Shown piece after piece: positions 26,688 to 59,126 of a stretch of 64,000 nt of DNA (the stretch's first letter is position 1; each line of letters begins with the position of its first letter). The notes under the pieces are model-generated. The model saw nothing but the letters and a program-made list of their open reading frames with translations, did not search any database and had not been told where the DNA came from. The position numbers were made by a program, and so were the translations under genes. Source of the DNA: Bacillota bacterium (GTDB taxonomy: Bacteria > Bacillota > Clostridia > Christensenellales > CAG-917); assembly GCA_023665365.1 (NCBI GenBank), contig JAMPEA010000004.1:32823-96822 (forward strand), in the 5' to 3' direction.

Positions 26688-27236
26688 TTATTGCAGAGCG
26701 GAAGCTATCAGTTCGACGCAGAAATTCATATATGCGCGCGCAGTGTCGCTCGGCGCCGTATCCGTCAAAAGAAGCGCCGCGCCCATGAGGTCGCCGCCGA
26801 CTATGACGGGTTCGAGCACAAGATATTTGCAATCCGCGTCGCGGTCGAAAAATACGTCTTTGAGCGCCGCACCCTCGATAATCTCCGAGCGTCTTAAACG
26901 CACCGTGTTTGAAAATCCGTCGCTAAGCTCCGCCGATTGATACGCCCTTTTGTTTTTGCCCTCCGCGACCGTCACGGACGACGTGTCCACAAAAAGCACC
27001 GTAGCGTCCGTAGCCTTTGCGAGCAACTTCGCCGTCGATTTGATGATGGGCAGTACGCTCTCGAAACTGCTGTACTTGCGTAGCGTAAGCGCGTCGCCGT
27101 TCGAGAGAATTTCCATCTCGTCGCCCTCTTTGAGGTGCATAGTTCTTCTCATCTCTTTTGGTATCACTATACGCCCAAGCTCGTCTATTCTTCTGACGAT
27201 GCCGGCGGTAGTCATTGTTGATCCGATTGTAGCCAT
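26688..27236 (-). CDS. spoVT: Stage V sporulation protein T (AbrB-type regulator with GAF-like C-domain)
   Basis: 'GIVRRIDELGRIVIPKEMRRTMHLKEGDEMEI' is the SpoVT/AbrB swapped-hairpin N-domain. 182 aa. GGAGGA lies upstream. Confidence 0.85.
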   Translation of the reverse strand: MATIGSTMTTAGIVRRIDELGRIVIPKEMRRTMHLKEGDEMEILSNGDALTLRKYSSFESVLPIIKSTAKLLAKATDATVLFVDTSSVTVAEGKNKRAYQSAELSDGFSNTVRLRRSEIIEGAALKDVFFDRDADCKYLVLEPVIVGGDLMGAALLLTDTAPSDTARAYMNFCVELIASALQ

Positions 27237-27318
27237 AATTCCTCCGATTTGAGTTTAGTATTTTTCAAACGAGTAGGAATATTCAAGATTTTACAAAATT
27301 TACCCGCATATAAAAAAG

Positions 27319-47612: not shown

Positions 47613-47621
47613 ATTTTTTCA

Positions 47622-47815
47622 CCCCATCAAACGCGGAGGTTTGACGGGGACCCCGATTTATTCACCCCACAAAACAGGGACGTTTTGCGGGGACCCCGAT
47701 ATTATACCCCATAAAATAGGGACATTTTATGGGGACCCCGATTTATACCCCATAAATTGGCAATTTATGGGGACCCCGATTTTTCCCTACAATCGCGGAG
47801 GTTTACCCCTCCGTA
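47622..47815 (-). repeat. Tandem array of 4-5 CCCC...GGGG hairpin units, each followed by ACCCCGAT
   Basis: Units start at about 47622, 47664, 47707 and 47748, with a degenerate one at about 47785. The stems covary (CCCCACAAAAC/GTTTTGCGGGG versus CCCCATAAAAT/ATTTTATGGGG). The A.C mismatches on the plus strand become G.U in minus-sense RNA. Confidence 0.75.
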
Positions 47816-50744: not shown

Positions 50745-51209
50745 TTAATTTTGTAAGGCGATACACATTACGCACACAAACGCATATACATCAAACAGAA
50801 ACGCCGGCAGAAACTCCAACGCCATTTTGTAATCCTTGATGAGAAAGCGCACGAAAAGCACGTACGCCATAGCAAGCACAAGCGAGATAAATATAAGCGA
50901 AGCGATAAGGTTTTTGAAAGTAAAAAAGCACAGCACAAAGAGGATACACCCTATGCCCATAACTCCGAAAAATATCATCGACGGGAAGATATGCTTATAC
51001 TCCACAAGCCGCCCCACCGCCAAAATTGACGAGATATACGACGCGCATACGAAAAACGTAAACCATCCGTTAGATACCAAAAACGAGGGTTTATTGAGCG
51101 AAATATACCACTTTAAGTCTATGTTGAAGCAATACGAGCATAAGCCCGCCACTACGAGGGTGCAAAGCAGACCTACGACTATTCCGAGCATACGCTTCAA
51201 ATACTTCAC
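50745..51209 (-). CDS. TspO/MBR-like five-helix membrane protein (weak call)
   Basis: 154 aa. 'WYISLNKPSF' resembles the TspO N-terminal motif and there are 5 hydrophobic helices. The family's usual Trp-rich signature is poor here. Confidence 0.4.
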   Translation of the reverse strand: MKYLKRMLGIVVGLLCTLVVAGLCSYCFNIDLKWYISLNKPSFLVSNGWFTFFVCASYISSILAVGRLVEYKHIFPSMIFFGVMGIGCILFVLCFFTFKNLIASLIFISLVLAMAYVLFVRFLIKDYKMALEFLPAFLFDVYAFVCVMCIALQN

Positions 51210-51314
51210 ACAAAAATATATTTGCGCAAATCGTTTTCAATACCTGTAACACATTTTTTTAAAAACGCGTAAGGTAATGTAGGAGAAATCCTAAAATAAT
51301 CGGAGGTACATACT

Positions 51315-51503
51315 ATGAACTTTTTTGCAAACGGTGGCTCAAACGGTTGTGGCTGTAACAGTTGCGACATTATCCTTCTTTTGTTGCTCTTAAACGGCTG
51401 CGGCAACAACGGATGCGGCGGATTCGGCTTGACGAACAGCTGTGATCTCGTATGGCTCATTCTCATCTTGTCCTGCCTTTGCGGCGGGAACTGCTGCAAA
51501 TAA
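51315..51503 (+). CDS. Cys/Gly-rich 62-aa peptide with two hydrophobic helices
   Basis: GGAGG 8 nt before the ATG and a 12-bp-stem terminator 20 nt after the stop. Sequence: MNFFANGGSNGCGCNSCDIILLLLLLNGCGNNGCGGFGLTNSCDLVWLILILSCLCGGNCCK (10 Cys). Confidence 0.6.
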   Translation: MNFFANGGSNGCGCNSCDIILLLLLLNGCGNNGCGGFGLTNSCDLVWLILILSCLCGGNCCK

Positions 51504-51522
51504 AAAATTTGCACTGTATTGA

Positions 51523-51556
51523 AAGCAATCCCACAGTCGTGGGATTGCTTTTTTTC
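51523..51556 (+). terminator. Strong intrinsic terminator of the small peptide gene
   Basis: AAGCAATCCCAC-agtc-GTGGGATTGCTT followed by T7. Confidence 0.75.
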
Positions 51557-51557
51557 A

Positions 51558-51648
51558 CCCCGCAAAACAGGGACGTTTTGCGGGGACCCCGTATTTACCC
51601 CACAAAACAGGGACGTTTTGCGGGGACCCCGTAGGGGAGGGGTTTTTG
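51558..51648. repeat. Two tandem CCCCRCAAAACAGGGACGTTTTGCGGGG-ACCCCGTA hairpin units plus a G-rich tail
   Basis: Units at 51558-51593 and 51598-51633, same family as 47622-47815. Lies in a convergent gap. Confidence 0.7.
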
Positions 51649-51707: not shown

Positions 51708-54035
51708 CTATTGCGGGGTGCGCGAGAGGCGGATTATTTCTTTATATTTCGACCAAACAATGTCCATAACCTCGTCCCAGCTTTGAACGTTTTTTGAACA
51801 GCGTTCGCTGACCCTCAAATAAATTTCGCGGTTGTTTTCAATAAATTCTATTTTATCCGCCCAAGCGTCGGGCGAATTTTCGGCGGTGAAACCGTTTTCG
51901 CAATCGACGATGCCTTCGCTCGACGAGGAATTTTCGACGACTACGCAGGGCGTTCCCATAGCTTCGGCTTCCCTGACAGTCAAGGACGCATTGTCGAAGG
52001 TCGAGGGAAAGAGAAAGTAATCGGCAGCCTTATAATAAGCCGCAAGCTCGGCGCGATCGGTGACTCTGCCTACGAATTCGCAGTAATCGGATATGCCGAG
52101 TTCATCGGCTTCCTTTATAAGTCGTTCTTTGTAATCGCCGTCGCCTACCAAGACAAGACGGGCTTGTATTCCTTTTTCGCGGAGACAGGCGAAGGTTTTA
52201 AGAATCAAAGAAATATTTTTCACGACGACCAAACGACCTACAAAGAGAAAGAGCCTTTCGTCGTCCGTGCGTTTTATAGCGGCAGCTATCTCGGCGGCGC
52301 GCTCGTTAATCCGTTCGGAATCCGCGTTAAACAAGTCGGTACCGTTCGGAACGACGTCGCAAGGACGGTCGATTTTGTAAACGTCCTTCAAAACCTCTTT
52401 GCAGTGCTCCGAACAAGCCCATATATAATCCATTTTCCTTATGGAAGACAGCAAAAAACCTAAGGCGAATTTCTGCAAGGGTTTGAGCTTTACACTTCGG
52501 TTGATTTCTTCGTGATATTTGGTATGCACAGTGAATACTATCGGAATGCCGTTGCGCTTGCAGTATTTGAGCGCTGTTTTCGAGAGAGTCACCGGCGAGT
52601 GGCAATGCACCAAATCGTAGCGGTTTTCTCTGAGGTATTTTTTGAGTTTAAGGTCAAGCTGCGGAAGCGGAAGTCTTACGCCGTATTTCCCTCCCGACAT
52701 TGACAGTGTCCGAATGACCTTATAACCTACGTCATTTTTGTACGGAGGCGGATAGCGAGGTACAAGCGCGTCGCAACTAAGCTCGTCGCCGAACCTTTCG
52801 TTGAGAATACGTGCGTAATTGTCGACAACGTTGACGACGCCGTCAATAATCGGAAAATAGTTGTCGAGCACTTGAAGCACGCGGATTTTGCGTGCGCCGT
52901 CTAACTCACTCTCGGATTCGAGAACCTTTTGGCGGCGTTTCTTTACGCGGCTTGAAAGAAATTTGTATAGAGTTCCGAAAAGCCCCAAAATTATATAGAT
53001 ATAATAGGTGCAGAATCTCCAAATAAAGACCAGCCAGAAAAGCGCGCCCGAAGCCATTGGTATAGGCGCAAACGCCATAGACGCTACGCCTTCTATCGCG
53101 CCGCTGTTTCCGGGGGTCGGAACGAGTGACGCGGCGAAAAGCGAATAGGCGTTGAGGGTTATCACGTCGAAAAAGAGTTTGGGCGTAGGCGTCGAGTTGC
53201 CAAGAGCCAGAACCACAAAAAACGGCACCGACATAACGAGCAAAAAGTCTGCGCAACAGATGAGGAAAAGAGATAAAATGCCGACAAAATTTTTTGCGAG
53301 ATGCTTGAACGCCTGTTTGTATCCGTCGAGAAAGGCGGATGCCTTTCCGTATGCTTTGTCGTATTCCTTGACGATTTTGAGCTTCACTCCGATTTTAAGA
53401 AAGAACCCGATGACCTTTTCCACGGGTTTAGGAAAGAGAGAGAAGAGAATAACCAAGGTAGGCGCCGCCGCAGCGATTGCGATACCTACGTAAGTGAGAG
53501 TTCCGACGGCGGTTGCCTGCGCGTCGGGCAGATAATCGAGCGCCGCGTGATTTACGATATAGAGGATAACGGAGACAACAATCCAGGCAATCAGCTGAAA
53601 AATATATTTGATTATCGGAATTGCCGCCGCAACCGTCGACGGATACTCCGCTTTGCAATACTGATATATCTGATACGCCTGTCCGCCTGTGTTGAACGGA
53701 GTGATATTATCGTAAAATCTCCCCATAATCCCGACCCGCAGGGAGAGCGCGAAGTCAAACCGACCGGAGGTAATTTTGGAAAGAACGGAGTATTTTAAAG
53801 CATCCGAAAGAACGAGCCCTACTACGACGAGAACGAGAGCTACGGCAAAAACGGGATTGATTGACGAAATAACGTCGTAAAACGACGCGATGCTTCCGCC
53901 GGAAAGCGTCTTGCTCACAGCATAAACGGTATAGAAAGTAGCTCCGAAAAACAGCAATAGAAGAAGCGTTTTGAAAATCCTCTTGGTTTTAGAGGATTTT
54001 GCGGAAGCCTTCGGATCGTTCGTCAAAATTTCCAT
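51708..54035 (-). CDS. Fusion of a UPF0104/LPG-synthase-type TM (flippase-like) domain and a GT4 glycosyltransferase
   Basis: 775 aa. The N-terminal ~370 aa are polytopic ('NITPFNTGGQAYQIYQ' motif). The C-terminal domain carries GT4-type 'FLFPSTFDNASLTVREAEAMGTPCVV'. Confidence 0.8.
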   Translation of the reverse strand: MEILTNDPKASAKSSKTKRIFKTLLLLLFFGATFYTVYAVSKTLSGGSIASFYDVISSINPVFAVALVLVVVGLVLSDALKYSVLSKITSGRFDFALSLRVGIMGRFYDNITPFNTGGQAYQIYQYCKAEYPSTVAAAIPIIKYIFQLIAWIVVSVILYIVNHAALDYLPDAQATAVGTLTYVGIAIAAAAPTLVILFSLFPKPVEKVIGFFLKIGVKLKIVKEYDKAYGKASAFLDGYKQAFKHLAKNFVGILSLFLICCADFLLVMSVPFFVVLALGNSTPTPKLFFDVITLNAYSLFAASLVPTPGNSGAIEGVASMAFAPIPMASGALFWLVFIWRFCTYYIYIILGLFGTLYKFLSSRVKKRRQKVLESESELDGARKIRVLQVLDNYFPIIDGVVNVVDNYARILNERFGDELSCDALVPRYPPPYKNDVGYKVIRTLSMSGGKYGVRLPLPQLDLKLKKYLRENRYDLVHCHSPVTLSKTALKYCKRNGIPIVFTVHTKYHEEINRSVKLKPLQKFALGFLLSSIRKMDYIWACSEHCKEVLKDVYKIDRPCDVVPNGTDLFNADSERINERAAEIAAAIKRTDDERLFLFVGRLVVVKNISLILKTFACLREKGIQARLVLVGDGDYKERLIKEADELGISDYCEFVGRVTDRAELAAYYKAADYFLFPSTFDNASLTVREAEAMGTPCVVVENSSSSEGIVDCENGFTAENSPDAWADKIEFIENNREIYLRVSERCSKNVQSWDEVMDIVWSKYKEIIRLSRTPQ

Positions 54036-56786: not shown

Positions 56787-57467
56787 TTATTGATTTTTGA
56801 GTTGCATGCTTAGCAGGGCGAGAGAGGCGGCTAAATCCTCGCCTTTCACTGCGATTTCGGGCGGCAGATTGAGGTGTACGGGGGCGAAGCACCATATCGC
56901 CTTTATGCCCGCTTCAACCATGCCGTCGGCGACTTTTTGCGCGGACAGCGACGGAACGCAGATTATCCCAAGGCGAATTTTGAACCTTTCGACCACGTTT
57001 TTGAGATTGTCTATATGGTAGACGGGTTTGCCGTTGACCTCGGTGTTGATAACGCCGTCGTTCACGTCGAAAGCCGCGACTATATTCAGCCCATAGTTGC
57101 GGAAGCCGTCGTAACCGAGTATTGCGCGCCCGAGCCCGCCCACGCCTACGAGCACCGCATCGCGGCTGTTTTTGTATCCGAGATAGCTTTCGAGGTCGGC
57201 AATCAGCTCTTTTGTGACGAAGCCCGTTTTGGGCTTGCCCGCGACGGACGATACGAGCGCGATGTCCTTGCGCACCTGCACGGGATTGAGCCCGAGCCCG
57301 TTTGCAATCGTAGTGCTCGAAACGGTCGGAACTTCGCTTTTGTCGAGCTTATATAAATATCTTAGATAGGACGGCAAGCGTCTTAACGTAGCTTTTGACA
57401 TTTCAGAAATTTGTTGTTCCTGCATAAATCCCTCGATATTTTTCATGCGGTAGAGGTTGAAAATCAA
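56787..57467 (-). CDS. rex: Redox-sensing transcriptional repressor Rex
   Basis: 'ATLRRLPSYLRYL' winged helix plus the Rossmann 'VLVGVGGLGRAILGY'. The start is uncertain: TTG at 57467, with ATG alternatives at about 57425 and 57401. Confidence 0.85.
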   Translation of the reverse strand: MIFNLYRMKNIEGFMQEQQISEMSKATLRRLPSYLRYLYKLDKSEVPTVSSTTIANGLGLNPVQVRKDIALVSSVAGKPKTGFVTKELIADLESYLGYKNSRDAVLVGVGGLGRAILGYDGFRNYGLNIVAAFDVNDGVINTEVNGKPVYHIDNLKNVVERFKIRLGIICVPSLSAQKVADGMVEAGIKAIWCFAPVHLNLPPEIAVKGEDLAASLALLSMQLKNQ

Positions 57468-57481
57468 GCAAAAGCAACGAC

Positions 57482-58861
57482 TTACTTGCTTTGCAAGTCA
57501 GTTGTACAAAGCGCGCTGATTTTCAACATAATGGCACATTCTATGCGTTTTTTAAATAGGTCGCAGCCGTAGGTGTAAACTCCGTTGACGTCGCCCGTGG
57601 CGTTAAACGCATTCGCGGCGCATCCGCCCGAGCAATACAACCTCGCCCAGCACCCGTCGCACTCCTTGCGCGAGTAGGCGTTGCAACGCTTAAACTTGTC
57701 GCGTATGTCCGTGCGCGTAACGCCCTGCCATATATCGCCCATAAGATAGTCCTTATTGCCGACGAACTGATGGCACGGATAAAGCTCGCCCGCGGGCGTG
57801 ACCGCAAGATATTCCGTCCCGCTTCCGCACCCCGATATGCGCTTGTATATGCAAGGACCGCTTTCGAGGTCGAGCATATAGTGATAAAACGTAAACGGCT
57901 TGCCTGCCTTTTCGCGCGAAATCATCATATCCGCGAGCTTTTCGTACTCCTTTAAGACGACAGCCTTATCCTCCTCGGTGAGCGCGTAGCTGTCTGTTGG
58001 CGGACACACGACCGGTTCCATACTCAGCTCGTCAAAGCCGAGGTCGAGCATAGCCTGTAAGTCGTTAGTAAAATCGGGATTGAGATGCGTAAACGTCCCG
58101 CGCATATAGTAGCTTTTATCGCCGCGCGCCTTTACGAACTTTTGAAATTTTGGCACGATTATATCGTAACTGCCCTGACCGCCCGCGGTCTTGCGGAAAC
58201 GGTCGTGCACTTCGCGCCTGCCGTCGAGGCTTAAAACTACGTTGTCCATCTCGCGGTTGGCAAAGTCGATTACGTCGTCGTCGAGGTTCATTCCGTTGGT
58301 TGTCAAAGTAAAACGGAAATGCTTGCCCGCCTTTTCCTCTGCCGAGCGCGCATACTCGACGAGCTTCTTCACCACCTCGAAATTCAAAAGCGGTTCGCCG
58401 CCGAAAAAGTCCACTTCGAGGTTGCGGCGCGTGCCGCTGTTTTCGATGAGAAAATCGAGCGCGCGCTTGCCCACCTCGTAGGACATAAGCGCCCTTTCGC
58501 CGTGATACTTGCCCTGCGACGCAAAGCAGTATTCGCAGTTGAGATTGCAGGTGTGCGCGACGTGCAGACAAAGCGCTTTCACAACCGTGTCGCGCTTGGC
58601 AAGCGCGTCCACGTTCGGCTTAAACGTATCCTCTGAAAAGAGAGTGCCCTCCGCCTTTAACTCGTCCACGTCGCTAAGGCAATCGCGCACGTCGTCCGCG
58701 CTTATGCCATACTTGGCGCTTACCTCGCGCACAATGGCTTCTCTATCGGTGTTTTCATAGGCGTTTATCACGTCGTAAGCAACGTCGTCAACGCAATGTA
58801 CGCTTCCGCTTGCCACGTCGAGCACGATATTATAGCCGTTCAGTTTGTACGTATGTATCAT
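57482..58861 (-). CDS. scfB: SCIFF radical-SAM thioether-forming peptide maturase
   Basis: 'CNLNCEYCF' radical-SAM cluster and C-terminal SPASM Cys motifs ('CGSGTEYLAV...CHQF', 'CDGCWARLYCSGGCAAN'). Lies directly downstream of a SCIFF precursor. Confidence 0.9.
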   Translation of the reverse strand: MIHTYKLNGYNIVLDVASGSVHCVDDVAYDVINAYENTDREAIVREVSAKYGISADDVRDCLSDVDELKAEGTLFSEDTFKPNVDALAKRDTVVKALCLHVAHTCNLNCEYCFASQGKYHGERALMSYEVGKRALDFLIENSGTRRNLEVDFFGGEPLLNFEVVKKLVEYARSAEEKAGKHFRFTLTTNGMNLDDDVIDFANREMDNVVLSLDGRREVHDRFRKTAGGQGSYDIIVPKFQKFVKARGDKSYYMRGTFTHLNPDFTNDLQAMLDLGFDELSMEPVVCPPTDSYALTEEDKAVVLKEYEKLADMMISREKAGKPFTFYHYMLDLESGPCIYKRISGCGSGTEYLAVTPAGELYPCHQFVGNKDYLMGDIWQGVTRTDIRDKFKRCNAYSRKECDGCWARLYCSGGCAANAFNATGDVNGVYTYGCDLFKKRIECAIMLKISALCTTDLQSK

Positions 58862-58930
58862 ATTACTCCGCAAAATGACATTCCGCAGGGACTTCGATAT
58901 TCTCCCGCAAAATGGCGTTTACACTTTAAA

Positions 58931-58955
58931 ATCGCCTATCTGTGCGATAGGCGAT
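58931..58955 (-). terminator. Hairpin between SCIFF precursor and maturase (probable partial terminator/attenuator)
   Basis: ATCGCCTATC-gcaca-GATAGGCGAT (10-bp stem) followed by TTTTAAAG in minus sense. Confidence 0.5.
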
Positions 58956-58979
58956 TTTTCATTCTCGATATTTGCAAAC

Positions 58980-59126
58980 TTATTTTGCTGCTTTCTCGCA
59001 CTTTTGATTTGCGACTCCGCAAGAGGTCTTGCAAGCGGATTGGCAGGACGTTTGGCACTCGCCGCAGCCGCCGTTTTTCTTGCTCTCGTTGAGATTGCGA
59101 GTTTTCAAAGTGACAATTCTTTTCAT
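58980..59126 (-). CDS. scfA: SCIFF (six-cysteines-in-forty-five) ribosomal peptide precursor
   Basis: Hand translation gives MKRIVTLKTRNLNESKKNGGCGECQTSCQSACKTSCGVANQKCEKAAK* (48 aa, 6 Cys). AAGGAG lies 8 nt upstream. It is below the 60-aa cutoff of the ORF track. Confidence 0.85.
   Translation of the reverse strand: MKRIVTLKTRNLNESKKNGGCGECQTSCQSACKTSCGVANQKCEKAAK

What the first reader, a model, noticed from the sequence alone, without database searches (positions are those of the whole stretch)
51315..51503. Stand-alone Cys/Gly-rich 62-aa peptide with two leucine-rich helices
The gene has a near-ideal RBS (GGAGG, 8-nt spacing) and its own 12-bp-stem terminator, so it is very likely expressed.

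The product is an internal duplication of the pattern [G/N/C-rich segment - NSCD - hydrophobic helix]:
- NGGSNGCGCNSCD-IILLLLLL
- NGCGNNGCGGFGLTNSCD-LVWLILILSCL, ending in CGGNCCK

It has ten cysteines.

It is reminiscent of the tiny Gly/Cys-rich single-helix sporulation proteins of Bacillota (YjcZ / 'tiny TM' type), but it is doubled and far more Cys-rich. Alternative readings are a metal- or redox-active membrane peptide, or a RiPP-like precursor. No dedicated maturase is adjacent; the neighbours are a TspO-like protein and a glycosyltransferase fusion.
Basis: partly seen in the sequence, partly recalled or inferred. Interest (0 to 1): 0.6.

Follow-up and report, generated by a model that had tools for sequence, protein, structure and literature searches.

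The report
Conserved cysteine-rich two-helix peptide gene
This is a real, conserved 62-residue gene from an undescribed family of cysteine/glycine-rich, doubly hydrophobic mini-proteins of gut Clostridia, whose relatives carry late-sporulation (sigma-K-type) promoters, so it is most likely a small spore-envelope or membrane component rather than an antibiotic precursor.

Summary
ORF 51315-51503 (+) encodes the stated 62-aa peptide. It has ten Cys, GGAGG 8 nt upstream, a strong terminator, and two 'NSCD + 8 aliphatic residues' modules (0 of 200,000 shuffles).

It is a real gene: orthologues occur in more than 40 species-level genomes of uncultured Christensenellales-like gut Clostridia, with median dN/dS 0.18. 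It is one branch of a wider unmodelled family (at least 298 protein clusters, mainly Lachnospiraceae). That family has no Pfam or NCBIfam model, and NCBI mislabels it 'chorion class high-cysteine HCB protein 13'.

It is not a YjcZ/PF09680 member (hhalign probability below 3%). No maturase is linked to it; the nearby radical-SAM enzyme has its own SCIFF precursor.

Sixteen of 17 out-group loci carry AC-N16/17-CATAnnnT. This is sigma-K geometry, as in mapped C. difficile promoters such as cdeC and cotE. Some also sit beside a Csp-like germination protease and sigma-E-type genes.

The window's clade keeps GTAAC-N17 but has an invariant CGTAAGGTAATGTAGGAG. That one-base departure also reads as an ECF (sigma-W-like) promoter.

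Best reading (about 0.45): a late mother-cell, cysteine-cross-linkable membrane or spore-envelope peptide. Main rival: an ECF-driven vegetative membrane peptide. Function is inferred, not shown.

The parts
51246..51252 (+). -35 element GTAACAC. The 'AC' at 51249-51250 lies 17 nt upstream of the -10 element.
   Evidence: Conserved as G[TG][AC]ACAC or ATCAC in all 40 subfamily loci. It has the same sequence and spacing as mapped C. difficile sigma-K promoters such as cdeC/CD1067, cotE and cotA (PMC3789822 Table S7).
51268..51285 (+). -10-like element CGTAAGGTA plus an invariant downstream block ATGTAGGAG, around the likely transcription start.
   Evidence: Unique in the window. CGTA[AT]G[GT]T[AG]A is present at this promoter in 40 loci, with only one chance-like match elsewhere in 469 kb. 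It is invariant even in loci that lack the TspO neighbour. No conserved RNA structure was found and there is no Rfam family above threshold.
51302..51306 (+). Shine-Dalgarno GGAGG, 8 nt before the ATG.
   Evidence: 'GGAGGTACA' is conserved across the subfamily and also in distant relatives.
51315..51503 (+). Coding sequence for the 62-aa Cys/Gly/Asn-rich peptide (stop codon included).
   Evidence: Orthologues occur in more than 40 genomes and median dN/dS is 0.18.
51357..51395 (+). Module 1 (residues 15-27): N-S-C-D, then IILLLLLL, then N.
   Evidence: C17, D18, L21-22, L26 and N27 are conserved in at least 90% of sequences. The AF2 helix spans residues 16-30 at low confidence.
51435..51482 (+). 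Module 2 (residues 41-56): N-S-C-D, then LVWLILIL, then S-C-L-C.
   Evidence: 'CDxxWLILILSC' is conserved in at least 90% of sequences. The AF2 helix spans residues 42-56.
51521..51556 (+). Intrinsic terminator: 14-pair stem, AGUC loop and a U-run.
   Evidence: -26.2 kcal/mol, z = -5.6. A comparable hairpin with a T-rich tail occurs in 23 of 41 distinct orthologous downstream regions.
50745..51209 (-). Divergently transcribed TspO/MBR-family gene (154 aa). It is a conserved neighbour, possibly but not demonstrably a functional partner.
   Evidence: Pfam PF03073 scores 29.7 bits against a cut-off of 24. The gene lies 93-111 nt upstream and divergent in all 44 subfamily loci. The pair has been inverted as a unit in 5 loci. 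It is absent in the L066/L067 lineage and in all out-group loci.

Best explanation
The gene encodes a member of an undescribed, Clostridia-wide family of 60-90-residue proteins.

Each protein is built from two copies of one module: a Gly/Cys/Asn-rich arm, then Cys-Asp/Ser/Asn, then 8-12 aliphatic residues (often containing Trp), then Ser/Asn-Cys.

The most likely mechanism has three steps.
1. The gene is transcribed late in sporulation in the mother cell, from a sigma-K-type promoter (GTAAC-N17-C[A/G]TAnnnTA), as a monocistronic mRNA with a strong SD and its own terminator.
2. The two short hydrophobic helices insert into a membrane as a hairpin. This could be the outer forespore membrane or another hydrophobic spore layer.
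3. The 9-17 cysteines in the flexible arms act as cross-linking or thiol-ligand sites that tie the peptide into the spore envelope. This would resemble other cysteine-rich coat and exosporium proteins.

What is shown:
- The gene is real and under purifying selection.
- The two-module architecture.
- The family's distribution.
- The promoter motifs and their conservation.
- The absence of homology to known families.

What is inferred:
- Which sigma factor acts here.
- The compartment and timing of expression.
- Membrane insertion.
- The role of the cysteines.
For: **Real, constrained gene**
-.

**Wider family**
- The profile search finds 298 clusters. Members have the same two-module design and conserved starts (MSDLAATNCGC... 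or MNFF...NGCGC...).

**Promoters in relatives**
- 13 of 14 Lachnospiraceae-type loci, plus L063, L064 and L065, carry AC-N16/17-CATAnnnT(A) upstream. The background rate is 0.6% per 110-nt window.
- Saujet et al. 2013 (PMC3789822) report that sigma-E and sigma-K share the CATA-type -10, and that sigma-K has 'AC' at -35.
- Their mapped sigma-K promoters are very often GTAACA-N16/17-[C/A]ATAnnnT. Examples are cdeC/CD1067, cotE and cotA.
- The window's promoter is GTAACAC-N15-CGTAAGGTA, the same geometry with one substitution.
- Its -35 variants across species (GTAAC, GTCAC, ATCAC, GGAAC) match the variation seen in C. difficile sigma-K promoters.

**Sporulation neighbourhood in Lachnospiraceae**
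- A Csp-like germination protease lies directly upstream (CspBA model 297 bits).
- Two downstream small genes carry GCATATT-N14-CATACACA, a sigma-E-type motif.

**Sporulation-type genes in the window's organism**
- A SpoVT-like gene (Pfam SpoVT_C 37.9 bits, above its cut-off of 27.5) has TGAATA-N17-AATACTA upstream.
- A SpoVB-like gene is present.
- A 289-aa M50 peptidase lies after minD, just beyond the window.

**Hydrophobicity and fold**
- Two segments have Kyte-Doolittle means of 1.85 over a 19-residue window and up to 3.16 over a 9-residue window.
- AF2 places helices at residues 16-30 and 42-56.
- Every orthologue has exactly three charges: D, D and the C-terminal K.
Against: - In the window's own clade the -10 element is invariably CGTA, not CATA. 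None of about 30 listed C. difficile sigma-K promoters has G at that position. GTAAC-N17-CGTA is also a perfect ECF (sigma-W-type) promoter.
- No sigK, sigE or coat gene was seen in the sequence available.
- The SpoVT-like and SpoVB-like proteins score below NCBIfam equivalog cut-offs (94 against 236, and 225 against 372).
- Published predictions mostly class Christensenellales MAGs as non-sporulating, with exceptions.
- The AF2 model has low confidence (pLDDT 52).
- The strictly aliphatic runs are only 8 residues long, which is short for a membrane span.
- No expression, localisation or proteomic data exist for any family member. A literature search for the PGAP name found only a silkworm paper.
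Confidence: 0.45

Rival explanations
1. It is a vegetative membrane peptide of the envelope-stress response. In the window's clade an A-to-G change in the -10 element converted an ancestral sigma-K promoter into an ECF-sigma promoter (GTAAC-N17-CGTA, sigma-W/X-like). The peptide is therefore made in growing cells under cell-envelope stress and acts in the cytoplasmic membrane.
For: - GTAAC-N17-CGTA is present in 28 or more of the subfamily loci.
- In B. subtilis, a CGTA -10 element with a (t)gAAAC -35 element and a nearby T-tract defines sigma-W-type ECF promoters (PMC5758882).
- The CGTA is invariant across more than 40 species, and never CATA, which suggests selection for the G.
- This clade has small genomes, and many Christensenellales MAGs are predicted to be non-sporulating.
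Against: - About 12 species have GTCAC or ATCAC at -35, which breaks the ECF 'AAC' core while keeping the sigma-K 'AC'.
- All out-group relatives have canonical CATA.
- No ECF sigma or anti-sigma gene lies in the window or in the 469 kb of related loci inspected by synteny.
- The motif occurs at no other gene in that 469 kb.
- The organism retains a SpoVT-like gene with a forespore-type promoter.
Confidence: 0.2
2. It is an accessory subunit or client of the neighbouring TspO-like membrane protein, or a membrane-anchored, metallothionein-like thiol or metal buffer. Under this reading the Cys-x-Cys and Cys-x-x-Cys arms bind metal or tetrapyrrole-derived ligands next to TspO.
For: - The TspO-like gene is divergent at a fixed distance of 93-111 nt in 44 of 44 genome loci.
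- The pair has been inverted as one unit between coaX and glyS in five lineages.
- Insertions occur on either side of the pair but never between the two genes.
- CxC, CxxC and CC motifs are abundant.
Against: - The closest lineage outside the main clade keeps the peptide and its invariant promoter but has no TspO neighbour (L066/L067).
- No out-group relative has TspO nearby.
- The individual Cys positions in the arms are poorly conserved. Their number ranges from 9 to 17 and the arms carry many indels. This argues against a defined metal site.
- The two genes have separate, different promoter motifs.
Confidence: 0.1
3. It is a RiPP or bacteriocin precursor (thiazole/oxazole-modified, sacti-, ranthi- or lanthipeptide) whose Cys-rich core is modified after translation.
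For: - Cys/Gly-rich composition and small size.
- A radical-SAM/SPASM maturase lies about 6 kb away.
Against: - That maturase has its own canonical SCIFF precursor directly upstream (58980-59126), and its distance from the peptide varies or it is absent.
- No cyclodehydratase, dehydratase, protease or ABC exporter is linked in more than 60 loci.
- There is no leader/core organisation. The most conserved parts are the hydrophobic segments.
- There is a single copy per genome in the collection scanned.
Confidence: 0.03
4. It is a divergent, tandemly duplicated member of the YjcZ / 'tiny TM' (PF09680, TIGR01732) sporulation protein family.
For: The architecture is broadly similar: a Gly/Cys-rich arm, then a hydrophobic helix, then Cys (alignment A6).
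Against: - No hit to PF09680 or TIGR01732 at E<=10.
- hhalign against 28 genuine YjcZ proteins gives 1.5-2.7% probability.
- The invariant YjcZ core F-x-L-x-VVLFILLII-x-G is absent. The CD...N/SC boundaries and the Trp of this family are absent from YjcZ.
Confidence: 0.02

Closest known systems
YjcZ family sporulation proteins ('tiny TM', Pfam PF09680 / TIGR01732) of Bacillaceae
   Same: Very small. A Gly-rich, Cys-containing arm is followed by a strongly aliphatic helix and a short Cys-containing tail. Annotated as sporulation proteins.
   Different: No detectable homology. YjcZ has one 16-17-residue core (FALIVVLFILLIIVG) and is Tyr-rich. This family has two 8-12-residue cores bounded by C-D and S/N-C, is Asn-rich, has no Tyr, carries far more Cys, and is found in Clostridia rather than Bacilli.
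Cysteine-rich spore coat and exosporium proteins expressed from sigma-K promoters (C. difficile CdeC/CD1067 and CdeM; B. subtilis CotY/CotZ)
   Same: High Cys content. In the relatives, the promoter has the same geometry as the mapped cdeC promoter, GTAACA-N17-CATAGTAT. The presumed role of the cysteines is cross-linking of the outer spore layers (established knowledge for these proteins, from memory).
   Different: Those proteins are much larger, soluble and not hydrophobic. There is no sequence similarity. A spore location for this peptide is only inferred.
SpoVM / CmpA-type mother-cell mini-proteins that anchor coat assembly to the forespore membrane
   Same: Mini-proteins made in the mother cell that associate with a membrane through a short hydrophobic or amphipathic helix (from memory).
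   Different: SpoVM is a 26-residue amphipathic helix without Cys and is sigma-E dependent. Here there are two fully aliphatic helices with Cys-rich arms. No homology was tested or expected.
Silkmoth chorion class high-cysteine (Hc-B) proteins, the name NCBI's pipeline gives to relatives
   Same: Cys-Gly-rich repetitive arms. This compositional match evidently triggers the automatic name.
   Different: That is an insect eggshell protein. The name is a composition artefact and there is no evolutionary or functional link. The only paper in the library that uses the name concerns Bombyx.
SCIFF ranthipeptide precursors (PF13165) with a radical-SAM maturase
   Same: A small Cys-rich peptide in Clostridia. 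One such system is present in the same window.
   Different: SCIFF is hydrophilic, has a fixed six-Cys pattern and is always adjacent to its maturase. The peptide studied here is hydrophobic, has a variable Cys count and has no maturase.
Eukaryotic CYSTM (cysteine-rich transmembrane module) tail-anchored stress proteins
   Same: A Gly-rich, low-complexity N-terminal part and a Cys-studded hydrophobic segment. A role in thiol or metal stress has been proposed for them (from memory).
   Different: No Pfam hit to any model, CYSTM included. CYSTM has one C-terminal module and is eukaryotic.

Membership tests
YjcZ / tiny-TM (PF09680, TIGR01732) | Match to the family HMM. | tested here: not met
   No hit at E<=10 in Pfam or NCBIfam, either for the window peptide or for six relatives.
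YjcZ / tiny-TM (PF09680, TIGR01732) | Conserved single core F-x-L-[IV]-VVLFILLII-[IV]-G, as seen in 28 genuine members. | tested here: not met
   Alignment A6 compared with A5 and A4 by hhalign gives probabilities of 2.7% and 1.5%.
Sigma-K (late mother-cell) regulon | -35 'AC' (often GTAACA) placed 16-17 nt upstream of the -10 element. | tested here: met
   GTAACAC at 51246-51252, with the AC 17 nt before the -10 element. Reference promoters are in PMC3789822.
Sigma-K (late mother-cell) regulon | -10 element CATAnnnT(A), with position 1 C or A and position 2 A. | tested here: inconclusive
   The window clade has CGTAAGGTA, matching 5 of the 6 specified bases, with G at position 2 in all 40 loci. 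Sixteen of 17 out-group relatives have the canonical CATA.
Sigma-K (late mother-cell) regulon | Expression dependent on sigK during sporulation. | not testable with these tools
   There are no transcriptome or mutant data for any carrier.
ECF-sigma (sigma-W/X-type) regulon | -35 'AAC' core and -10 'CGT(A/C)' with a spacer of 16-17 nt. | tested here: inconclusive
   Met in the window and in most species (GTAAC-N17-CGTA). The AAC core is CAC in about 12 species. The reference consensus is in PMC5758882.
ECF-sigma (sigma-W/X-type) regulon | Presence of a cognate ECF sigma/anti-sigma pair in the genome. | not tested
   Only 64 kb plus flanks were available. No such pair was noticed in the neighbourhoods annotated.
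RiPP precursor | A co-localised modifying enzyme, protease or exporter that is conserved with the precursor. | tested here: not met
   None is present in more than 60 loci. The only nearby maturase has its own SCIFF precursor.
Unnamed 'two-module Cys/Gly/Asn-rich hydrophobic peptide' family (PGAP label 'chorion class high-cysteine HCB protein 13') | Two modules of [G/C/N-rich arm]-C-[DSN]-[8-12 aliphatic residues, often with W]-[SN]-C. Length 58-91 aa. | tested here: met
   Alignments A3, A4 and A5. The profile search gives 298 clusters. The window peptide scores E = 1e-17 against the mixed-family profile.
TspO/MBR (the neighbour gene, not the peptide) | Match to PF03073 above the gathering score. 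| tested here: met
   29.7 bits against a cut-off of 24. It is far below the NCBIfam alphaproteobacterial TspO equivalog (22 against 180), so it is a divergent family member.

The most novel reading that the evidence does not exclude
The family could be a new class of spore-envelope anchor. In this reading, two half-bilayer-length aliphatic helices (8 residues each, bounded by Asp and Asn/Ser) insert as a monotopic hairpin into the mother-cell-facing leaflet of the outer forespore membrane. They would display variable Cys/Gly/Asn arms that become disulfide-linked into the coat.

In the window's reduced-genome clade, a single fixed A-to-G change in the -10 box would have re-wired this ancestral sigma-K gene to an ECF-type sigma. 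That change would re-purpose a spore protein as a vegetative envelope peptide kept next to TspO.
Probability: 0.12. Interest if true: 0.65.

Novelty: new variant of a known kind. Interest (0 to 1): 0.4.

Why it matters
Small proteins are systematically under-annotated. This family is spread over at least 298 sequence clusters of abundant gut Clostridia, mainly Lachnospiraceae and Christensenellales-like lineages. It has no Pfam or NCBIfam model and carries a misleading insect-eggshell name in GenBank.

If it is a sigma-K-dependent spore-envelope component, it would have three uses:
- A compact marker of sporulation capacity in uncultured gut Firmicutes, whose spore-forming status is debated.
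- A new building block of clostridial spore surfaces, which matter for transmission between hosts.
- A natural example of how one base in a -10 box can move a gene between sigma regulons.

If it is an ordinary membrane peptide instead, the practical gains are corrected annotation and a definable family model.

Tried and rejected
- **Family libraries.** Pfam and NCBIfam scans of the peptide and six relatives at E<=10 found nothing. The only hit was a meaningless 7.8-bit match to CRA.
- **Solved structures.** A profile search of PDB sequences found nothing at E<=1.
- **First homology searches.** The single-sequence word-indexed search found only 4 clusters. The 4-sequence profile against 1.8 billion representatives found only 4 hits. 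Both understated the family. A degenerate-pattern scan of genomes and a mixed-subfamily profile were needed.
- **Structure prediction.** AlphaFold2 with 19 sequences gave pLDDT 52, too low for a fold search, so none was run.
- **5' leader as RNA element.** I rejected the leader as a riboswitch or structured RNA. RNAalifold predicts no pairs. The apparent 5-bp GNRA hairpin loses its outer pairs without compensation in many species. Rfam gives only a sub-threshold PsrR1 match on the opposite strand (24.9 bits against 42).
- **Other members of the regulon.** A search for other genes with the CGTAAGGTAATGTAGGAG motif found none in the window. In 469 kb of related loci there was one chance-like match to the -10 pattern and none to the leader.
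- **Other sigma readings.** By eye against consensus sequences recalled from memory, sigma-F, sigma-G, sigma-E and sigma-A readings of the promoter gave no acceptable -10/-35 pair. The sigma-70 scanner found no plus-strand site upstream of the gene.
- **Antisense ORF.** I rejected ORF 51206-51565 (119 aa) because the codon-position variation fits the plus strand.
- **Literature.** A search for the PGAP name returned only a Bombyx paper. One earlier search was wasted on an over-broad term.
- **Exact-sequence lookup.** The window peptide is not on record in the contig index.
Full report

Yes. The plus-strand ORF 51315-51503 translates to MNFFANGGSNGCGCNSCDIILLLLLLNGCGNNGCGGFGLTNSCDLVWLILILSCLCGGNCCK.

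- It has ten Cys, 12 Gly, 12 Leu and 9 Asn. Only three residues are charged: D18, D44 and the C-terminal K62.
- GGAGG lies at 51302-51306, 8 nt before the ATG.
- A stem-loop at 51521-51552 followed by a U-run folds at -26.2 kcal/mol. Its z-score is -5.6 and none of 200 shuffles folds as well. The simple terminator scanner missed it because part of the T-run is inside the stem.
- 'NSCD' occurs twice, each time followed by exactly eight aliphatic residues. None of 200,000 composition-preserving shuffles reproduces that.
- The window holds no paralogue.

**2. Is it a gene?**

The first searches found few relatives. A word-indexed search returned four clusters. A four-sequence profile against 1.8 billion representatives returned four more.

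A degenerate-pattern scan of one genome per species then found 51 loci. Of these, 38 encode clear orthologues of 59-70 aa. They come from MAGs labelled 'Christensenella sp. UBA...', 'Firmicutes bacterium CAG:475' and 'uncultured Clostridiales UMGS...', recovered from human, mouse, rabbit and ruminant guts.

Across 39 distinct coding sequences:
- The third codon position is the most variable (entropy 1.03, against 0.61 and 0.32).
- Median pairwise dN/dS is 0.18.
- Positions conserved at 90% or more are MN.F...G.N.GCGCN.CD..LL...LN in the first half, CD..WLILILSC.C in the second, and the terminal K.
- The Gly/Cys/Asn arms between these blocks vary in length and in Cys number (9-17).
- Every orthologue has exactly three charged residues.

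This is a protein-coding gene under purifying selection. The antisense 119-aa ORF is not the gene.

**3. A wider family**

The other 13 loci are from Lachnospiraceae. They encode 78-91-aa proteins that start with MSD[LI][AT]A[TS][NG]CG and again contain two modules of the type ...SC[SDN]-[LI]IW[LI]ILLLSC....

A profile of both groups retrieves 298 clusters at E<=0.01. None has a Pfam domain. Where NCBI gives a name, it is 'chorion class high-cysteine HCB protein 13'. That name is a compositional artefact: the only paper in the library that uses it concerns the silkworm.

Neither the window peptide nor six diverse relatives hit any Pfam or NCBIfam model at E<=10. No PDB sequence matches. The family is therefore undescribed in the resources available here.

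**4.

I retrieved genuine YjcZ proteins, all carrying PF09680 and named by NCBI and UniRef. I aligned 28 of them. Their invariant core is F-x-L-x-VVLFILLII-x-G. hhalign against the two alignments of the present family gives probabilities of 2.7% and 1.5%.

The resemblance is one of composition and design, not ancestry. The gene is not a member of that family.

**5. Test of the RiPP idea**

The radical-SAM/SPASM enzyme at 57482-58873 has its own canonical SCIFF precursor at 58980-59126 (Pfam SCIFF). Its distance from the peptide varies, or it is absent, in other genomes.

No cyclodehydratase, protease or exporter accompanies the peptide in more than 60 loci. The most conserved parts are the hydrophobic segments, not a leader. 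I reject this reading.

**6. Neighbourhood**

A TspO/MBR-family gene (50745-51209, minus strand; PF03073 at 29.7 bits against a cut-off of 24) is divergently transcribed. It lies 93-111 nt upstream in all 44 subfamily loci.

- The ancestral order is coaX-tspO<->peptide-glyS.
- Five lineages have the pair inverted as a unit.
- Insertions occur on either side but never between the two genes. The window itself has such insertions.

However, one closely related lineage keeps the peptide and its promoter next to glyS and thrS with no TspO (L066/L067). No out-group relative has TspO nearby. The link is therefore clade-specific. It may be functional or may simply reflect tight synteny.

**7. Promoter: the most informative evidence**

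*The window's clade.* Upstream of the orthologues there is an unusually conserved block, G[TG][AC]ACAC-N15-CGTA[AT]G[GT]T[AG]ATGTAGGAG. It is present in 40 loci. Elsewhere in 469 kb of these loci the -10 pattern has one chance-like match and the leader none, and the block is unique in the window.

*The out-group.* Thirteen of 14 Lachnospiraceae-type loci, plus three other out-group members (L063, L064, L065), carry AC-N16/17-CATAnnnT(A). The background rate is 0.6% per 110-nt window.

*Reference promoters.* Saujet et al. 2013 (PMC3789822) state that C. difficile sigma-E and sigma-K share the CATA-type -10, and that sigma-K has 'AC' at -35 while sigma-E has 'ATA'. Their Table S7 shows that mapped sigma-K promoters are very often GTAACA-N16/17-[C/A]ATAnnnT. 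Examples include cdeC (CD1067), cotE and cotA. The out-group relatives therefore have textbook sigma-K promoters.

*Comparison.* The window's promoter (GTAACAC at 51246-51252, CGTAAGGTA at 51268-51276) has the same -35 and the same spacing. It differs at one -10 base: G instead of A at position 2. None of about 30 C. difficile sigma-K promoters has a G there.

*Two competing readings.* The string GTAAC-N17-CGTA also fits the sigma-W-type ECF consensus (PMC5758882). About 12 species have GTCAC or ATCAC at -35. This keeps the sigma-K 'AC' but breaks the ECF 'AAC' core, and it mirrors the variation seen among C. difficile sigma-K promoters.

I therefore favour a sigma-K-type or sigma-K-derived promoter. 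I cannot exclude that the clade re-wired the gene to an ECF sigma.

*Invariant leader.* The bases downstream of the -10 element (ATGTAGGAG) remain unexplained. They form no conserved RNA structure and match no Rfam family above threshold.

**8. Sporulation context**

*In several Lachnospiraceae:*
- The relative lies directly downstream of an S8 protease whose best matches are the CspBA and CspC germination proteins (297 and 282 bits, below the strict cut-offs).
- It lies upstream of two small conserved unannotated genes. Their upstream regions read GCATATT-N14-CATACACA, which is sigma-E-type.

*In the window's organism:*
- A SpoVT-like gene is present (Pfam SpoVT_C 37.9 bits against 27.5; best NCBIfam model spore_V_T, but at 94 bits against 236).
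- It is preceded by TGAATA-N17-AATACTA. By my recollection of the consensus, this is a forespore sigma-G/F-type promoter.
- A SpoVB-like gene follows it.
- Just beyond the window end, a 289-aa M50 peptidase follows maf-mreB-minD. In B. subtilis that is the position of spoIVFB, again from memory.

These are hints of sporulation capacity, not proof. Published predictions for Christensenellales MAGs are mixed.

**9. What the protein probably does**

- AlphaFold2 gives two helices, at residues 16-30 and 42-56, but with low confidence (pLDDT 52).
- Hydropathy is high. The 19-residue Kyte-Doolittle mean reaches 1.85 and the 9-residue mean reaches 3.16.
- The strictly aliphatic runs are only eight residues long. 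Each is bounded by Asp on the N-terminal side and by Asn or Ser-Cys on the C-terminal side.

The simplest model is a helical hairpin in a membrane, either spanning it or dipping into it, with flexible Cys/Gly/Asn arms on the surface. The number and positions of the arm cysteines vary. This fits cross-linking or bulk thiol chemistry better than a defined metal site.

Combined with the promoter evidence, my best explanation is a late mother-cell, membrane-embedded, cysteine-cross-linkable component of the spore envelope (confidence about 0.45).

| Rival reading | Confidence |
|---|---|
| ECF-driven vegetative envelope peptide | 0.2 |
| TspO partner or thiol/metal buffer | 0.1 |
| RiPP precursor | 0.03 |
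| YjcZ family member | 0.02 |

**10. Novelty and verdict**

The gene is real. It belongs to an unmodelled and mis-named family, and no paper in the library describes that family. By kind it resembles the known tiny hydrophobic, Cys-containing sporulation proteins, but it is unrelated to them in sequence. It also differs in being doubled and in having very short aliphatic cores. I rate it a new variant of a known kind.

The function is inferred from promoter motifs and neighbourhoods only. Interest is moderate (0.4). The gene would be useful for annotation and for spore biology of gut Clostridia. It also offers a testable question: did one -10 base move it between sigma regulons?

Noticed in passing
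window 57482-59126 (-): A complete SCIFF ranthipeptide system. The precursor MKRIVTLKTRNLNESKKNGGCGECQTSCQSACKTSCGVANQKCEKAAK lies at 58980-59126, directly upstream of its radical-SAM/SPASM maturase at 57482-58873. A Rex-like repressor gene follows at 56787-57467.
   Followed up: partly
window 47614-47790 and 51550-51647: Two clusters of palindromic units of about 40 nt (CCCCRCAAAACAGGGACGTTTTGYGGGGACCCCG), with 4-5 copies in the first and 2 in the second. They look REP-like. They sit at the borders of DNA that is inserted here relative to the ancestral coaX-tspO-peptide-glyS order seen in relatives.
   Followed up: partly
window 25082-27300 (-): A SpoVT-like gene (26688-27236) is preceded by TGAATA-N17-AATACTA, a forespore sigma-G/F-type motif. 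A SpoVB/MurJ-like gene (25082-26686) follows it with a small overlap. Both score below the NCBIfam equivalog cut-offs, so they are divergent.
   Followed up: partly
window 51195-51245 (-), start of the TspO-like gene: The GTG start and the next six codons are conserved as coding sequence across species. A TATAYT box lies about 5 nt upstream and there is no Shine-Dalgarno sequence. The TspO-like mRNA may therefore be leaderless. A conserved TTGAAA lies only about 14 nt upstream of that box.
   Followed up: no
window 51708-54035 (-): A 775-aa fusion of a flippase-like LPG_synthase_TM domain with a GT4 glycosyltransferase. Its best NCBIfam similarities are to glycolipid, GlcN-PG and monoglucosyl-DAG synthases. 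It is absent from this position in most related genomes, so it is an insertion here.
   Followed up: no
L045-L059 (Lachnospiraceae loci), e.g. L059 6544-7212 and L047 4174-5892: Relatives of the peptide lie in a small cluster. A Csp-like S8 germination protease is upstream. Two conserved unannotated small genes (about 110-150 aa and 92-104 aa, with no Pfam or NCBIfam hit) are downstream and carry a sigma-E-type promoter motif (GCATATT-N14-CATACACA).
   Followed up: partly
L068 3483-4929 (just beyond the window's high-coordinate end, same species): The gene order is maf-mreB-minD, then an 83-aa ORF (possibly MinE), a 79-aa ORF and a 289-aa M50 peptidase. This position recalls spoIVFA-spoIVFB after minCD in B. 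subtilis. The peptidase has no NCBIfam match.
   Followed up: no
Database records for P0001 and relatives: The NCBI record for the identical protein is attributed to 'Bacteroides sp.', although the contig is clearly from a Clostridia MAG. Relatives carry the automatic name 'chorion class high-cysteine HCB protein 13'. Both look like annotation artefacts.
   Followed up: partly
window 51261-51325 (-): A sub-threshold Rfam match to the cyanobacterial sRNA PsrR1 (24.9 bits against a gathering score of 42, E = 0.05), opposite the peptide's promoter and leader. It is almost certainly a chance match.
   Followed up: no
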